Position numbers and translations under genes: made by a program. Below, one piece after another: positions 9,812-12,581 of a stretch of 64,000 bases of DNA; within the stretch, counting starts at the first letter, position 1; each line of letters starts with the position of its first letter. Origin of the DNA: a phage. Where the stretch lies: the sequence record PX068456.1; one strand, 5' to 3'. The notes below the pieces were generated by a model. That model did not search any database. It was not told the DNA's origin and worked only from the letters and a program-made list of their open reading frames with translations.

Positions 9812-9887
9812 TGGTCGTGGTAAACGGAGTCGAACCGTTGTTTCTCGATTATCGGTCGAGTGTACTAACCATCTGTACGATACCACA
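9812..9887 (-). tRNA. tRNA, probable Ile (anticodon GAT)
   Basis: encoded CCA, 7-bp acceptor stem, T-arm aacgg/agtcgaa/ccgtt on the plus strand, U8, D-arm gtac stems; anticodon loop has C at position 33 (atypical). Confidence 0.5.
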
Positions 9888-9892
9888 ATAAT

Positions 9893-9975
9893 TGGCAGCA
9901 AGGTGAGGAATCGAACCCCTTGATCTATGGTTTGGAGCCATATTGAGTACCATACTCTTTTAAATCTACCCGGCT
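9893..9975 (-). tRNA. tRNA-like, anticodon arm reads CCA (Trp) but D-arm/acceptor geometry aberrant; possible pseudogene
   Basis: encoded CCA, T-loop aatcgaa, perfect anticodon stem-loop tatgg/tttggag/ccata; 5' acceptor strand displaced by about 9 nt. Confidence 0.3.
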
Positions 9976-10033
9976 ATGAGTTCCTTGAAGTGTCAATGTA
10001 ACTTAATCATTACACCAGAAGGGAGGTATTTAT

Positions 10034-10112
10034 TGGAGGCGGGAGTAGGATTTGAACCTACGATCTCCAGCATATGAAACTGGCGAGGACGACCAGACTC
10101 CTCTATCCCGCG
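10034..10112 (-). tRNA. tRNA-Met (anticodon CAT)
   Basis: encoded CCA, T-arm gtagg/atttgaa/cctac, anticodon loop TTCATAT, D-loop with GG, U8-A9; pair 1-72 is C-C. Confidence 0.6.
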
Positions 10113-10127
10113 CAATCTGTAGTAATT

Positions 10128-10203
10128 TGGTTGATAGTAAGAGAATCGAACTCTTCTCGCAATGCCTTATGAAAGCACTCGAAACGCCAGCTTCACACTA
10201 TCA
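10128..10203 (-). tRNA. tRNA with anticodon CAT (second Met, initiator or Ile2-type)
   Basis: encoded CCA, perfect acceptor stem tgatagt/actatca, T-arm aagag/aatcgaa/ctctt, anticodon loop TTCATAA; D-arm atypical. Confidence 0.5.
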
Positions 10204-10291
10204 ATGGCTAACCCTTTATAACCCGTCTTGGCGTGGTATCCTTAACAGGATGGTAGATATCCGTTGCAAACCCTATGATATCTCTTAGATA

Positions 10292-10376
10292 TGGTGGCTA
10301 AGGTGAGACTCGAACTCACAATCCCTTGGGGCAATACGTTCTAAGCGTATCGTGTATACCATTCCACCACTTAGCC
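10292..10376 (-). tRNA. tRNA-Leu (anticodon TAG), type II
   Basis: encoded CCA, acceptor ggctaag/cttagcc, T-arm gtgag/actcgaa/ctcac, anticodon stem atacg/cgtat with loop CTTAGAA, 14-nt variable arm. Confidence 0.65.
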
Positions 10377-10453
10377 ATAATAAATACACCACTGTAAGAA
10401 GCCTCAATGTGCTATTGACAGTTAACCAAGTCTACTCCTTGGATGGTGATATT

Positions 10454-10528
10454 TGGTGCAGAGAGATGGTAACGATCCATCCTTTCTACCTTTTCAGGGT
10501 AGCACTAATCCGTCTCAGCTATCTCTGC
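10454..10528 (-). tRNA. tRNA-Phe (anticodon GAA), non-canonical T-loop
   Basis: encoded CCA, perfect acceptor gcagaga/tctctgc, T-stem gatgg/ccatc with loop ATCGTTA, anticodon stem ctacc/ggtag with loop CTGAAAA. Confidence 0.5.
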
Positions 10529-10533
10529 AAATT

Positions 10534-10609
10534 TGGTCAGTGCGGCAGGACTCGAACCTGCGACCCGAAGCATCCAAAGCTCCCACGCTACCAACTGCGC
10601 TACGCACTG
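10534..10609 (-). tRNA. tRNA-Pro (anticodon TGG)
   Basis: encoded CCA, acceptor cagtgcg/cgcactg, T-arm gcagg/actcgaa/cctgc, anticodon loop TTTGGAT. Confidence 0.65.
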
Positions 10610-10616
10610 TAAATAC

Positions 10617-10691
10617 TGGCTGGAGATCTAGGAATCGAACCTAGTCATCACGACTTCAAAGGCCGTTGCCTTCCCACTAGGCTAATCTCCA
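10617..10691 (-). tRNA. tRNA-Gln (anticodon TTG)
   Basis: fully parsed cloverleaf: acceptor TGGAGAT, D-stem GCCT/AGGC, anticodon stem-loop ACGGC-CTTTGAA-GTCGT, T-arm CTAGG-TTCGATT-CCTAG, discriminator G, encoded CCA. Confidence 0.7.
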
Positions 10692-10790
10692 ATAAAACTA
10701 AAAATCACTTAAAAAGAACCGCTAGAGTTTGAAGGAGAAAACCATGAGCGAAAAGAGAAATTTTCTCTAGCGATTCCATTTAAATAATCT

Positions 10791-10865
10791 TGGAGCGAGT
10801 AACAGGACTTGAACCTGCACCTGGAGGGTGGAAACCTCATATGCTACCATTAACACTATACCCGC
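10791..10865 (-). tRNA. tRNA-Gly (anticodon TCC)
   Basis: encoded CCA, acceptor with one GU pair, T-loop acttgaa, anticodon loop TTTCCAC, D-loop with GG. Confidence 0.6.
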
Positions 10866-10920
10866 TTAACAATATTACTCTAACATATTATTAGCCCCTT
10901 TGTCAAGAGGCTTTTGATAT

Positions 10921-11244
10921 TTATTTTAAAATAGTAGATGCACCACGTCTGTTTAGATATGCAATAGTAAAATCCAAATCACCTATTTCTTCAGGTTCCC
11001 ACTGACCTTCTAAACCATAACAAGAACAATGATATGCGTGTACTTCATAAAACAAAGATGTTTTCATATCATAAAAATAAACGTGAGATTCACCTTCATA
11101 ATATGCACAATCATAAGTGGCAGAAAGAATTACAATGTTATCCTTATCTAACTCTACTTCATAATATCTTTCAACATCTTCAATATCATCAAAACCATCG
11201 AAAACATTGATATTAAAATATTTCTCTAACTCTTTTTCTGTCAC
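10921..11244 (-). CDS. hypothetical protein embedded in the tRNA array
   Basis: 107-aa ORF between tRNA genes, same strand. Confidence 0.45.
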   Translation of the reverse strand: MTEKELEKYFNINVFDGFDDIEDVERYYEVELDKDNIVILSATYDCAYYEGESHVYFYDMKTSLFYEVHAYHCSCYGLEGQWEPEEIGDLDFTIAYLNRRGASTILK

Positions 11245-11267
11245 ATATACTCCTTTAGAGTTAAAAT

Positions 11268-11342
11268 TGGTGCTCCCACAAGGACTCGAACCCTGATAAG
11301 TTGCTTACAAGGCAACCGTAATAGCCGTTATACGATAGGAGC
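11268..11342 (-). tRNA. tRNA-Thr (anticodon TGT)
   Basis: encoded CCA, acceptor gctccca/taggagc, T-arm caagg/actcgaa/ccctg, perfect anticodon stem gttgc/gcaac with loop CTTGTAA. Confidence 0.65.
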
Positions 11343-11419
11343 AAAATATTTGCTTGGTAGGATTTGATACCTACAATTCTAGAAAATTCTAGAGGTTTCT
11401 ATTAACTCTACAAGCACTA

Positions 11420-11504
11420 TTTGGCGATGGATCAAGGATTTGAACCTTGCTAGAACTTTCGTTCACGGATTAACAGTCCGTCGCCCAACCACTAGGCCAA
11501 TCCA
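11420..11504 (-). tRNA. type II (Ser-like architecture) tRNA whose anticodon reads GTT
   Basis: encoded CCA, discriminator G, perfect acceptor gatggat/atccatc, 3-bp D-stem, perfect anticodon stem acgga/tccgt with loop CTGTTAA, 15-nt variable arm forming a GAAC/GTTC hairpin. Confidence 0.45.
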
Positions 11505-11511
11505 TCTTTAA

Positions 11512-11598
11512 TTTGGTGCAGGTAGTTGGACTCGAACCAACGAAGCCCCGAAGGGCAGGAGATTTACAGTCTCCAGCAATTGCCGCTATGCGATACCT
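11512..11598 (-). tRNA. tRNA-Tyr (anticodon GTA), type II
   Basis: encoded CCA, T-arm gttgg/actcgaa/ccaac, perfect anticodon stem ggaga/tctcc with loop CTGTAAA, 16-nt variable arm. Confidence 0.65.
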
Positions 11599-11603
11599 AC
11601 GTG

Positions 11604-11679
11604 TTTGGTACATCGTGAAGGATTCGAACCTTCGACCTTGGAGTTAAAAGCCCCTTGCTCTACCAACTAAGCTAACGAT
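11604..11679 (-). tRNA. tRNA-Lys (anticodon TTT)
   Basis: encoded CCA, perfect acceptor acatcgt/acgatgt, T-arm gaagg/attcgaa/ccttc, anticodon loop CTTTTAA, D-loop AGTTGGTA. Confidence 0.65.
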
Positions 11680-11815
11680 GTATAAATTATCTTTAAAATA
11701 GCCAGTGTTTGCGGCACTTGACTATGAAGTATTAGGGTATCGGTAAGATGGTGGAGGCCATCTGCCGAAAGTTTACTCTATTAAAGTAAGATTACAAGCT
11801 ACATTAAAGATAACT

Positions 11816-11901
11816 TGGCGGTAGATGTAGGACTTGAACCTACACGCCGTTTCCGACGACAGTTTAGCAAACTGTTGTGGCTACCATTTCACCAATCTAC
11901 C
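11816..11901 (-). tRNA. tRNA-Ser (anticodon GCT), type II
   Basis: encoded CCA, discriminator G, perfect acceptor ggtagat/atctacc, T-arm gtagg/acttgaa/cctac, anticodon stem acagt/actgt with loop TTGCTAA. Confidence 0.65.
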
Positions 11902-11909
11902 GTTCTTAA

Positions 11910-12110
11910 TTATTCAAAACAACCGGAATCTTTTTGTTCTGCTTTTACCATACGAATATTTTTACCATCTTCAGATTGTTGAAGATTAGAATACTCATAA
12001 ACAACTTTATTATCTACAATCTTAACTCCGGTAACAACCTGTCCAATAGTTTTATAATTCATAAAGCTCCTAGTTGAATTTGGAGGAAGATAATGGAGTC
12101 GAACCATCAC
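11910..12110 (-). CDS. hypothetical small protein embedded in the tRNA array
   Basis: 66-aa ORF; its 3' region may overlap the tRNA-Ser(TGA) call, so one of the two may be wrong. Confidence 0.3.
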   Translation of the reverse strand: MMVRLHYLPPNSTRSFMNYKTIGQVVTGVKIVDNKVVYEYSNLQQSEDGKNIRMVKAEQKDSGCFE

Positions 12111-12170
12111 CGTATCGCTACAATGGGCCAGGGTTCAAACCTGGTTGCGCACCGCTGCGCCCTACCTTCC
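12081..12170 (-). tRNA. tRNA-Ser (anticodon TGA), type II, about 90 nt
   Basis: encoded CCA, T-loop agtcgaa, anticodon stem ccagg/cctgg with loop TTTGAAC, about 19-nt variable arm; D-arm parse uncertain. Confidence 0.45.
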
Positions 12171-12233
12171 CGTTATCATACTTTAAATCTAACATAAAAC
12201 TATCTTGCTTGTCAAGTAGTTTTTAAAACTTTT

Positions 12234-12315
12234 TGGTCGGGGTGACAGGATTCGAACCTGCATACTCCAATTACTCGGTTAACGCCTGATTAGAAGTCAG
12301 GTGAGATACACCCCG
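12234..12315 (-). tRNA. tRNA-like, anticodon arm reads TCT (Arg) but no normal D-arm and 23 nt between anticodon and T arms
   Basis: encoded CCA, perfect acceptor cggggtg/caccccg, T-arm acagg/attcgaa/cctgc, stem-loop cctga/CTTCTAA/tcagg. Confidence 0.4.
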
Positions 12316-12384
12316 TTTTCACAGTAACTATAACAAAAAACTAAGTGAATGTCAAGATATTTTTACTAAAATTATTATTTAAAT

Positions 12385-12493
12385 TGAAGCCTAGTTATGG
12401 AATCGAACCATATTTCGTATTTAGTTAGACAAAGCGGTCTAACATATTTTTCAGGCTTTGATGGCCTCGGAATTACCAAATACCCTACTAGGC
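12385..12493 (-). tRNA. tRNA-like element or pseudogene: good 3' half, 5' acceptor complement only about 100 nt away
   Basis: T-arm tatgg/aatcgaa/ccata and acceptor strand gcctagt present, no encoded CCA; matching actaggc at 12487-12493. Confidence 0.25.
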
Positions 12494-12495
12494 GT

Positions 12496-12581
12496 TGGTG
12501 CAAGTGGAGGGATTCGAACCCTCAATCATTTAAGCGTTGCGTTTTAAGCACAATGTGTATCACCAATTCCACCACACTTGC
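12496..12581 (-). tRNA. tRNA-Leu (anticodon TAA), type II
   Basis: encoded CCA, perfect acceptor gcaagtg/cacttgc, T-arm gaggg/attcgaa/ccctc, anticodon loop CTTAAAA, 13-nt variable arm. Confidence 0.65.

What the first reader, a model, noticed from the sequence alone, without database searches (positions are those of the whole stretch)
9812..12581. Eighteen-gene tRNA array with several degenerate or atypical members
About 18 tRNA-like genes lie on the minus strand, most with encoded CCA and clean cloverleaves. Several are aberrant: 9893..9975 has a Trp-type anticodon arm but a displaced 5' acceptor strand; 12234..12315 has an Arg(TCT)-type arm but no normal D-arm; 12385..12493 has a good 3' half with the 5' acceptor complement about 100 nt away; 10454..10528 has T-loop ATCGTTA. 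Two genes carry anticodon CAT. A T-arm-like remnant sits near 11355..11372. The array looks like an evolving mix of functional genes and pseudogenes; three small ORFs are embedded in it.
Basis: seen in the sequence. Interest (0 to 1): 0.45.

Follow-up and report, generated by a model that had tools for sequence, protein, structure and literature searches.

The report
Phage tRNA array with rewired tRNA-Arg
The tRNA gene cluster of this phi92-like coliphage is real, and its three "broken-looking" members are conserved non-standard tRNAs, one of them an arginine tRNA whose D-arm parts sit in a different order, a form found in over 100 phage contigs and missed by standard tRNA finders.

Summary
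The window comes from a Justusliebigvirus (phi92-like) coliphage. The array is real.

The "aberrant" loci are not pseudogenes.

- **Element B (12234-12315):** a tRNA-Arg(UCU) with no D hairpin. Three nucleotides after U8-A9-U pair with three nucleotides located 3' of the anticodon arm ("helix X"). A D-loop-like strand (UAAUUGGAGUAU) follows and leads into the T arm. Helix X covaries strongly in two alignments, of 51 and 86 distinct sequences from unrelated phages. The rival variable-arm hairpin does not covary. Members carry Arg anticodons almost exclusively (UCU, CCU, ACG, CCG, GCG, UCG). ARAGORN misses 96% of them. No match was found in complete E. coli genomes. A sister Klebsiella phage has a canonical tRNA-Arg(UCU) at the same position.
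- **Element A (9893-9975):** a conserved tRNA-Trp variant with a 9-nt insert 5' of the D stem.
- **Element C (12385-12493):** a UCA-anticodon tRNA-like gene with a Sec-type D arm. Erwinia phage Hena1 annotates its homolog as a suppressor tRNA.
- **11350-11416:** the only locus that still looks like a relic.

I found no published description of the B-type fold.

The parts
9812..12688 (-). The whole tRNA gene array: 19 tRNA-like genes, one relic and two conserved small ORFs.
   Evidence: ARAGORN, Rfam and annotation of near-identical phages OP177727 and LR865361.
12234..12315 (-). Element B: an 82-nt tRNA-Arg(UCU) with a rewired D domain.

Layout in window coordinates:
- Acceptor 5' strand 12315-12309
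- U8 A9 U 12308-12306
- Helix X 5' strand 12305-12303
- Anticodon arm 12301-12285, with anticodon UCU at 12294-12292
- Connector CGUUAACC 12284-12277
- Helix X 3' strand 12276-12274
- D-loop-like strand UAAUUGGAGUAU 12273-12262
- T arm 12261-12245
- Acceptor 3' strand 12244-12238
- A73 12237
- CCA 12236-12234
   Evidence: - Rfam tRNA model: 40 bits, with the D arm deleted.
- Family model R1: 102 bits.
- Covariation.
12327..12355 (-). Sigma-70-type promoter TTGACA-17-TATAGT with an extended -10 TG, placed to start transcription a few nucleotides upstream of element B.
   Evidence: 11 of 12 consensus matches. The sister phage FKP3 has an equivalent promoter before its canonical tRNA-Arg(UCU).
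9893..9975 (-). Element A: an 83-nt tRNA-Trp(CCA) variant. It has a 9-nt insert (GAUUUAAAA) between A9 and the D stem, and a 5-nt D loop (AUGGU). In this lineage it carries C4xU69 and A49xA65 mismatches.
   Evidence: - Rfam tRNA model: 22.9 bits, below threshold.
- ARAGORN calls it only at a relaxed setting.
- Eight homologs in three subfamilies have 7 pairs with compensatory changes.
12385..12493 (-). Element C: a 109-nt tRNA-like gene.
- 7-bp acceptor stem
- 6-bp D stem with a 4-nt loop
- Anticodon loop CAUCAAA (UCA, with A33)
- Variable region of about 40 nt containing a hairpin
- 5-bp T stem
- U73
- 3' end UCA instead of CCA
   Evidence: - Fold.
- Homologs in a Salmonella Ithacavirus phage and in the Erwinia Henunavirus phages Hena1 and pEa_SNUABM_55. 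The Hena1 copy is annotated tRNA-sup(tca).
- Deleted in Paula and VivaForever.
11350..11416 (-). tRNA-like relic: a 6-bp acceptor-like stem and a T-arm-like hairpin with an 8-nt loop, but no proper anticodon loop.
   Evidence: - Fold z-score -2.7.
- Weak "Arg tct" call only in ARAGORN's mitochondrial mode.
- No homolog outside close relatives, and none in FKP3.
12081..12170 (-). tRNA-Ser(UGA), 90 nt. Position 8 is A and can pair to give an 8-bp acceptor stem with a 4-bp T stem. The variable arm has 7 bp and a GCGA loop.
   Evidence: - ARAGORN.
- Rfam tRNA-Sec, 35 bits, below threshold.
- Fold.
- Comparison with 30 phage Ser(UGA) genes.
12613..12688 (-). Its T loop is AUUGUAA, far from the usual consensus.
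   Evidence: ARAGORN. It gets no Rfam tRNA-model match at E up to 10. Sequence.
10034..10203 (-). Two adjacent CAU-anticodon tRNAs, at 10034-10112 and 10128-10203.
   Evidence: ARAGORN. Rfam scores the first at 50.6 bits.
10454..10528 (-). tRNA-Phe(GAA) with the T loop AUCGUUA, an A54/U58 swap.
   Evidence: Homologs in L052 and FKP3 have different T loops (UUCGAUA and CUCGAUA).
11422..11506 (-). tRNA-Asn(GUU), 85 nt, with a long variable arm (GAAC-GAAA-GUUC).
10921..11244 (-). Embedded ORF of 107 aa, PHROG 8792, function unknown.
11910..12062 (-). Embedded ORF of 50 aa, PHROG 22441, function unknown.

Best explanation
This is the tRNA gene cluster of a phi92-like coliphage. It is transcribed from several sigma-70-type promoters and supplies tRNAs for codons that the AT-rich phage uses more than E. 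coli does. Its odd-looking members are working, conserved, non-standard tRNAs.

**Element B is an arginine tRNA reading AGA (and probably AGG).**
- It keeps a normal acceptor stem, anticodon arm, T arm and CCA end.
- It contains the same set of segments as a normal tRNA, but in a different order.
- Normal order: D-stem 5' strand, D loop, D-stem 3' strand, nucleotide 26, anticodon arm, variable loop.
- Order in B: D-stem 3' strand, 26, anticodon arm, variable-loop-like connector, D-stem 5' strand, D loop, nucleotide 48.

**Shown here**
- The 3-bp helix between the 5' linker and the segment behind the anticodon arm.
- A covarying 15/48-type pair.
- The restriction of the fold to Arg anticodons.

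**Inferred**
- The helix stacks on the anticodon stem as a D stem does.
- The strand A14-A15-N-U-G18-G19-A20...A21 meets the T loop and presents A20 to ArgRS, so the L shape and arginine identity are kept.
- The form arose by duplication and deletion, and spread among phages.

**Elements A and C** are, respectively, a tRNA-Trp variant and a UCA-anticodon (opal-suppressor-type) tRNA-like gene.
For: **Helix X is real**
- In alignment A1 (51 distinct sequences): pair 11-42 is C-G in 51 of 51. Pair 12-41 is UA 32, GC 10, AU 9, with none unpaired. Pair 13-40 is CG 41, GC 6, UA 4, with none unpaired.
- The second set (A2, 86 distinct sequences) came from a scan that did not constrain this region. 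There the helix is 98.8% paired, with four pair types at one position and five at another.
- RNAalifold predicts the same helix on its own.

**Tertiary 15/48-like pair**
- AU 79, GC 4, GU 1, other 2.

**Arginine identity**
- Anticodons among the 86 distinct model hits: UCU 75, CCU 3, ACG 3, CCG 2, GCG 1, UCG 1, and one UAU.
- The nucleotide after GG (the "A20" position) is A in 122 of 125 Arg-anticodon members, and U in both UAU members.
- This matches the bacterial identity rules: A20, C35, U/G36 and A/G73 for Arg, and U20 for Ile (PMC9976931).

**Segment inventory**
- Short-connector members are 77-79 nt long. That length accounts for every canonical segment exactly once.

**Functional equivalence to a normal tRNA-Arg(UCU)**
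- Klebsiella phage FKP3 has a canonical tRNA-Arg(UCU), with its own promoter, at the syntenic site.
- Only 5 of 109 B-bearing loci also carry a canonical Arg(UCU).
- B is the only Arg tRNA in this array.
- AGA makes up 24.5% of Arg codons in 41 long window ORFs.

**Expression signal**
- An 11-of-12 promoter match lies directly upstream.

**Elements A and C**
- Their stems covary across phage subfamilies.
- Hena1 annotates the homolog of C as tRNA-sup(tca).
Against: - No expression, processing, charging or decoding data were available.
- The three-dimensional mimicry is inference from sequence.
- Helix X has only 3 base pairs, and the fourth pair is mostly unpaired.
- The scan patterns imposed some of the conserved motifs, so invariance of CGUUAA, GUAA and GGAGUAU within the first subtype is not independent evidence.
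- A2 was fitted to the model, so its pair counts lean toward the modelled structure.
- Two members carry UAU, so the fold is not strictly limited to Arg.
- The window's A and C copies carry mismatches, and C lacks an encoded CCA.
- My literature search covers open-access papers only.
Confidence: 0.78

Rival explanations
1. One reading: the atypical loci (A, B, C) are decaying tRNA pseudogenes in an evolving array.
For: - ARAGORN's default run misses all three.
- Rfam scores A below threshold and does not match C.
- The window's A has two stem mismatches.
- The window's C has a D-stem mismatch and no CCA, and is deleted in Paula and VivaForever.
- The relic at 11350-11416 shows that decay does occur in this array.
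Against: - The same odd architectures recur in unrelated phage groups with compensatory changes in every stem.
- Anticodon loops are nearly invariant.
- B has its own strong promoter.
- B replaces the canonical tRNA-Arg(UCU) rather than sitting beside it.
Confidence: 0.05
2. B folds as a tRNA without a D arm but with a long variable-arm hairpin (CCGA/UUGG). This is the single-sequence minimum-energy fold. There is no long-range helix.
For: ViennaRNA's minimum-energy and centroid structures for the window sequence show this hairpin.
Against: Across 51 sequences the four proposed pairs show essentially no compensatory changes (one cell in one pair). Between 7 and 26 sequences are unpaired at each pair. 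The alternative helix X shows full covariation.
Confidence: 0.03
3. B-type RNAs are structured tRNA mimics that are not used for decoding. For example, they could be decoys or sponges for a host tRNA-directed nuclease or modification enzyme, or regulators.
For: - The fold is essentially restricted to phages. Only 4 MAG contigs among the representative genomes of 185,579 species carry it, and no complete E. coli genome does.
- Phage tRNA arrays are proposed in the literature to act as anti-defence devices. I did not test this here.
- About a third of members lack an encoded CCA.
Against: - The fold is tied to the arginine identity set (A20-like A, C35, U/G36, A/G73) across six different Arg anticodons.
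- It stands in for the canonical gene both in position and in co-occurrence.
- The phage's AGA usage is high.

A decoy would not need to keep all of these features.
Confidence: 0.12

Closest known systems
Canonical phage tRNA-Arg(UCU), for example in T5-like phages (NC_105114, 68625-68699) and in Klebsiella phage FKP3
   Same: - The acceptor stem and T arm of the T5-like gene are nearly identical to those of B.
- Same CUUCUAA anticodon loop.
- Same kind of D-loop sequence (AAUGGAUA against AAUUGGAGUA).
- Same genomic position and promoter type in FKP3.
   Different: The canonical genes have a D hairpin between position 9 and the anticodon arm, and a 5-nt variable loop. In B the D-stem partner strand and the D loop lie 3' of the anticodon arm.
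Animal mitochondrial D-armless tRNA-Ser(GCU/UCU)
   Same: There is no D hairpin. A short linker after the acceptor stem pairs with the variable region and stacks on the anticodon stem (PMC9427863).
   Different: The mitochondrial tRNA has lost the D loop, the tertiary core and the canonical T loop, and its linker pairs are loose. B keeps a 12-nt D-loop-like strand with GG, a canonical UUCGAAU T loop, Watson-Crick covarying pairs and arginine identity. It occurs in phages of bacteria.
allo-tRNAs and (8/4) tRNA-Ser/His of bacteria and phages (Mukai et al. 2017, PMC5389517)
   Same: - They are non-canonical tRNAs found in phage tRNA clusters and overlooked by standard tools.
- The window's Ser(UGA) fits the (8/4) description.
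- Element C shares the 6-bp D stem with 4-nt loop, the long variable arm and U73.
   Different: allo-tRNAs change the lengths of the acceptor and T stems but keep the cloverleaf order. B is 7/5 with changed segment order. C is 7/5, not 8/4 or 9/3.
Permuted tRNA genes of Cyanidioschyzon merolae (recalled from memory)
   Same: The segments of a tRNA are encoded in a rotated order.
   Different: In those genes the whole 3' half precedes the 5' half, and processing through a circular intermediate restores a normal tRNA. In B the acceptor ends are in normal order, and the internal rearrangement would remain in the mature RNA.
Bacterial tRNA-Sec (Rfam RF01852)
   Same: Element C has a UCA anticodon, a 6-bp D stem with a 4-nt loop, and a long variable arm.
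   Different: C has a 7/5 acceptor/T arrangement, not 8/5. It has U73, not G73, and A33, not U33. It gets no RF01852 match at E up to 10.

Membership tests
tRNA (Rfam RF00005), element B | Score at or above the curated gathering threshold of 29 bits. | tested here: met
   40 bits at 12237-12315.
tRNA (Rfam RF00005), element B | 7-bp acceptor stem, 5-bp anticodon stem with a 7-nt loop (U33, purine 37), 5-bp T stem with a UUCRANN loop, and a 3' CCA. | tested here: met
   Sequence. These stems are 95-99% paired and covary across the family.
tRNA (Rfam RF00005), element B | A D-arm hairpin between position 9 and the anticodon arm (the cloverleaf order). | tested here: not met
   Only 5 nt separate A9 from the anticodon stem. 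The Rfam alignment deletes the D arm. The pairing partner lies 3' of the anticodon arm.
Bacterial arginine identity set (A20, C35, U/G36, A/G73; PMC9976931) | C35, U36 or G36, and A73 or G73. | tested here: met
   The window has UCU and A73. In the family the discriminator is G in 64, A in 47, U in 14 and C in 2. All Arg-type anticodons have C35.
Bacterial arginine identity set (A20, C35, U/G36, A/G73; PMC9976931) | [quoted passage not shown] | tested here: inconclusive
   An A follows GG in 122 of 125 Arg-anticodon members, and U follows GG in both UAU members. Whether it occupies the position-20 pocket in three dimensions cannot be tested here.
Bacterial arginine identity set (A20, C35, U/G36, A/G73; PMC9976931) | Aminoacylation by ArgRS. 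| not testable with these tools
   Needs a biochemical assay.
Mitochondrial D-armless tRNA-Ser type | Loss of the D loop and tertiary core, with a remodelled non-canonical T loop. | tested here: not met
   B keeps the strand UAAUUGGAGUAU and the T loop UUCGAAU. The 15/48-like pair covaries.
allo-tRNA / (8/4) or (9/3) tRNAs (PMC5389517) | A 12-bp acceptor branch split 8/4 or 9/3. | tested here: not met
   B and C are 7/5. The window's Ser(UGA) is compatible with 8/4, but the comparison was not decisive.
tRNA-Trp, element A | CCA anticodon, G73 and an A1-U72 pair (the E. coli TrpRS identity set, recalled from memory). | tested here: met
   All 8 homologs have A1, U at the 72 position, G73 and a YUCCAAA anticodon loop.
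tRNA-Trp, element A | Rfam tRNA gathering score and a standard D arm. | tested here: not met
   22.9 bits, below the 29-bit threshold. It has an 8-9-nt insert 5' of the D stem and a 5-nt D loop, both conserved in all 8 homologs.
tRNA-Sec (RF01852), element C | 8/5 acceptor/T arrangement, G73, a CUUCAAA loop, and the gathering score. | tested here: not met
   C has a 7/5 arrangement, U73 and a CAUCAAA loop. It gets no RF01852 match at E up to 10. Only the 6-bp D stem with 4-nt loop and the UCA anticodon agree.

The most novel reading that the evidence does not exclude
B-type genes define a phage-specific class of translating tRNA with a topology not previously described. It is a three-way junction in which the D stem forms between the 5' linker and a strand behind the anticodon arm. 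In effect the tRNA core is cyclically permuted. The fold is still charged by host ArgRS through an A20-like base and is still used by the ribosome. It may have spread among unrelated phages because the rewired core escapes a host activity that recognises canonical tRNA-Arg.
Probability: 0.5. Interest if true: 0.88.

Novelty: new variant of a known kind. Interest (0 to 1): 0.78.

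Why it matters
Recent literature states that all known bacterial tRNAs are canonical cloverleafs, and that arm length is the only structural variable in cytosolic tRNAs (PMC11551756).

A natural and widespread tRNA-Arg family with a reordered core would have several consequences:
- It would show that bacterial translation accepts a different backbone connectivity.
- It would provide a natural scaffold for engineering orthogonal tRNAs.
- It would mean that phage tRNA inventories are undercounted. ARAGORN missed 121 of 126 members, and most GenBank records leave the locus blank.
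- It would raise a testable question about why phages, and apparently only phages, keep this form for arginine.

The finding also changes how "degenerate" tRNA-like loci in phage arrays should be read.

Tried and rejected
- **Variable-arm hairpin model for B.** Rejected by covariation counts.
- **Pseudogene reading of A, B and C.** Rejected by homologs with compensatory changes.
- **IMG/VR scan for C** with GCCATCAAAGCNNGNAAAA. Among the 63 newly fetched loci only one, the Hena1 genome, carried a C-type gene. The rest were chance or coding matches. C was otherwise seen only in the Justusliebigvirus contigs fetched earlier. The C family therefore stayed at three phage groups.
- **First scan pattern for A.** The second pattern gave 9 loci and only one new distinct member.
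- **Extra pairing for A's 9-nt insert.** I looked by eye for a partner for the insert and found none that held up in the homologs.
- **Spacers 10204-10291, 10377-10453 and 9730-9811.** I checked these for hidden tRNA-like genes. Their fold z-scores are unremarkable. In the loci I held, the first two matched only close relatives. 9730-9811 also matched FKP3 at 86%.
- **B in host genomes.** B found no match in 5,426 complete E. coli genomes. Only 4 MAG contigs in the species-representative genome scan carry it.
- **Literature.** Six searches and seven papers gave no description of the B-type fold.
- **Identity of the three CAU tRNAs.** Whether each is initiator, elongator Met or Ile2 was not resolved.

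Full report
**What the window is.** The region 9500-13000 is 99.4% identical to Escherichia phage pEC-M2929-1AR.1, and 96-99% identical to dozens of other Justusliebigvirus (phi92-like, Stephanstirmvirinae) phages. The finding lies in their known tRNA gene cluster.

**Checking the observation.**
- ARAGORN tRNAs on the minus strand between 9812 and 12688.
- Rfam's tRNA model above its threshold. It adds 12237-12315 at 40 bits and misses three ARAGORN calls.
- 18 of the 19 encode CCA.
- A third CAU tRNA lies just outside the range, at 12613-12688.

**Element B (12234-12315): first look.** The RNA reads CGGGGUG UAU CUC A CCUGA CUUCUAA UCAGG CGUUAACC GAG UAAUUGGAGUAU GCAGG UUCGAAU CCUGU CACCCCG A CCA.
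- Rfam aligns the acceptor, anticodon and T arms. It deletes the D arm and inserts 20 nt in the variable region.
- BLAST found 81-87% identical copies in phages from several other groups. None of these copies was annotated.
  - Felixounavirus
  - Asteriusvirus (jumbo phages)
  - Mydovirus (Klebsiella phages)
  - A Streptomyces phage
- T5-like phages have a canonical tRNA-Arg(UCU) with nearly the same acceptor and T arms.

**Element B: the helix.**
- Three IMG/VR pattern scans gave about 170 contigs.
- In an alignment of 51 distinct sequences, three nucleotides after U8-A9-U pair with three nucleotides that lie 3' of the anticodon arm. I call this helix X.
- The pair counts:

| Pair | Types | Unpaired |
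|---|---|---|
| 11-42 | CG 51 of 51 | 0 |
| 12-41 | UA 32, GC 10, AU 9 | 0 |
| 13-40 | CG 41, GC 6, UA 4 | 0 |

- The hairpin that single-sequence folding proposes shows essentially no compensatory changes. It leaves 7-26 sequences unpaired at each pair.
- I built a covariance model that includes helix X. It scores the window copy at 102 bits, against 27.6 bits for the best canonical tRNA.
- On contigs from the third scan, which did not constrain this region, the model found 95 members, 86 of them distinct.
- In that set helix X is 98.8% paired, with four pair types at one position and five at another. RNAalifold predicts the same helix independently.

**Element B: reading the structure.** This part is inference.
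- The strand after helix X reads U-A-A-(N)-U-G-G-A-(N2-4)-A-U. This looks like a D loop (A14, R15, G18, G19, A20, A21) followed by nucleotide 48.
- The third base of that strand and the last base before the T stem covary as a 15/48 pair: AU 79, GC 4, GU 1, other 2.
- Members with short connectors are 77-79 nt long. They contain each canonical segment exactly once.
- The simplest description is a tRNA in which the block "D-stem 5' strand plus D loop" has moved from in front of the block "D-stem 3' strand, 26, anticodon arm, variable loop" to behind it.
- The orientation of the helix relative to the anticodon stem matches that of a D stem.
- That the fold keeps the L shape is an inference. I could not model it.

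**Element B: identity and function.**
- Among the 86 distinct model hits the anticodons are UCU 75, CCU 3, ACG 3, CCG 2, GCG 1, UCG 1 and UAU 1.
- Some contigs carry two to four B-type genes covering different Arg anticodons.
- The base after GG is A in 122 of 125 Arg-anticodon members, and U in both UAU members.
- Bacterial arginine identity rests on A20, C35, U/G36 and A/G73. Bacterial isoleucine identity includes U20 (PMC9976931).
- In 171 phage loci ARAGORN called 1152 tRNAs for all amino acids, but only 5 of the 126 B-type genes. Only 5 of 109 B-bearing loci also had a canonical Arg(UCU).
- The Klebsiella Justusliebigvirus FKP3 has a canonical tRNA-Arg(UCU), behind a TTGACA-18-TATAGT promoter, at the position syntenic with B.
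- B itself follows an 11-of-12 promoter match.
- AGA makes up 24.5% of Arg codons (10.2 per 1000) in 41 long ORFs of the window. From memory, it is rare in E. coli.
- B is the only Arg tRNA in the array.
- Together these results point to a working tRNA-Arg. None of them is direct evidence of charging or decoding.

**Element B: distribution.**
- The subtype pattern matched 78 places in species-representative genomes. Only 4 MAG contigs held real members.
- B found nothing in 5,426 complete E. coli genomes.
- One GenBank record labels the locus "tRNA-OTHER". Other records leave it blank or place a hypothetical ORF there.

**Element A (9893-9975).**
- Unannotated homologs exist in Klebsiella phage FKP3, in two Ounavirinae phages, in an IMG/VR contig and in a Certrevirus phage.
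- All share the same layout: acceptor stem, two nucleotides, an 8-9-nt insert (R-N-U-U-U-(U)-A-A-N), a 4-bp D stem, a 5-nt D loop, a YUCCAAA anticodon loop, G73 and CCA.
- Seven pairs show compensatory changes, and the D stem is 100% paired.
- The Ounavirinae copies have perfect stems. The window's lineage carries two mismatches.
- A is therefore a conserved tRNA-Trp variant, perhaps slightly weakened here.

**Element C (12385-12493).**
- Homologs at about 71% identity occur in a Salmonella Ithacavirus phage and in Erwinia Henunavirus phages. Hena1 annotates its copy as tRNA-sup(tca).
- Acceptor, D, anticodon and T stems all show compensatory differences. The loop CAUCAAA, with A33, is invariant.
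- The D stem has 6 bp with a 4-nt loop, as in tRNA-Sec and allo-tRNAs. However, the acceptor/T split is 7/5 and the discriminator is U.
- The window copy has a U-U mismatch in its D stem and ends in UCA.
- Sister phages Paula and VivaForever have deleted the element and keep a short stub.
- Its function, possibly UGA read-through, is open.

**The rest of the array.**
- The relic at 11350-11416 has an acceptor-like stem and a malformed T arm. It has no homolog beyond close relatives. This is the one locus where the pseudogene reading still fits.
- The two conserved embedded ORFs belong to phage protein families of unknown function.

**Literature.**
- Six searches and seven papers gave no description of the B-type fold.
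- A 2024 paper states that all known bacterial tRNAs are canonical cloverleafs.
- A 2020 review of non-canonical tRNAs lists no phage or arginine case.
- The nearest structural analogue is the mitochondrial D-armless tRNA-Ser, whose linker pairs loosely with the variable loop. That tRNA has lost the D loop and the tertiary core.
- (8/4) tRNA-Ser and tRNA-His have been reported in phage clusters.
- The search covers open-access papers only, so an earlier description cannot be excluded.

**Verdict.** The pseudogene interpretation is mostly wrong. The array itself is ordinary and already annotated. The rewired tRNA-Arg family it contains appears to be an undescribed structural variant of tRNA.

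Noticed in passing
window 11422-11506 (-): tRNA-Asn(GUU) is 85 nt long, with a long variable arm (GAAC-GAAA-GUUC) and G73. In bacteria this class-II-like shape is normally limited to Leu, Ser and Tyr. In the fetched phage loci, 13 of 55 ARAGORN tRNA-Asn calls are 82 nt or longer. Some Lys, Ile and Met calls are also that long.
   Followed up: partly
window 10692-10790 and 11682-11815 (-): Two inter-tRNA spacers fold into long closed stems, with z-scores of -4.1 and -4.3 against shuffles. The first is 85% conserved in Klebsiella phage FKP3. Their role is unknown. They might be processing sites or small RNAs.
   Followed up: partly
window 12081-12170 (-): tRNA-Ser(UGA) has A8, which can pair to give an 8-bp acceptor stem and a 4-bp T stem. 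It scores 35 bits on Rfam's tRNA-Sec model. This fits the (8/4) tRNA-Ser reported from phages (PMC5389517). Most other phage Ser(UGA) genes I compared have U8 and a G49-C65 pair.
   Followed up: partly
L333/L334 (Klebsiella phage FKP3, PP895363, 87300-94500): This diverged Justusliebigvirus carries a larger array of 23 ARAGORN tRNAs, including Val, Ala, Glu, His, Cys and Arg(ACG). It has a canonical tRNA-Arg(UCU) where the E. coli phages have the rewired one. It has no copy of element C or of the relic.
   Followed up: yes
L069 5506-5585 and L176 2889-2967: Two members of the rewired family carry the anticodon UAU (reading Ile AUA). At the A20-like position they have U instead of A, which matches the bacterial Ile identity element U20.
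   Followed up: partly
L157 2107-2349; L104 8180-8420; L142 1175-1539: Some uncultivated phage contigs carry three or four rewired tRNA-Arg genes in tandem, with different Arg anticodons. In those phages the rewired form appears to be used for several Arg isoacceptors in one cluster.
   Followed up: partly
window 12613-12688 and 10454-10528 (-): The third CAU tRNA has the T loop AUUGUAA, which lacks the usual T54, C56 and A58. tRNA-Phe has AUCGUUA, where homologs in L052 and FKP3 have UUCGAUA and CUCGAUA. Which CAU gene is initiator, elongator Met or Ile2 was not resolved.
   Followed up: no
window 12375-12503 (-) and 9976-10288 (+): Some GenBank records annotate short hypothetical proteins over element C and over the tRNAs on the opposite strand. 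These are probably false gene calls caused by unrecognised tRNA-like genes.
   Followed up: no
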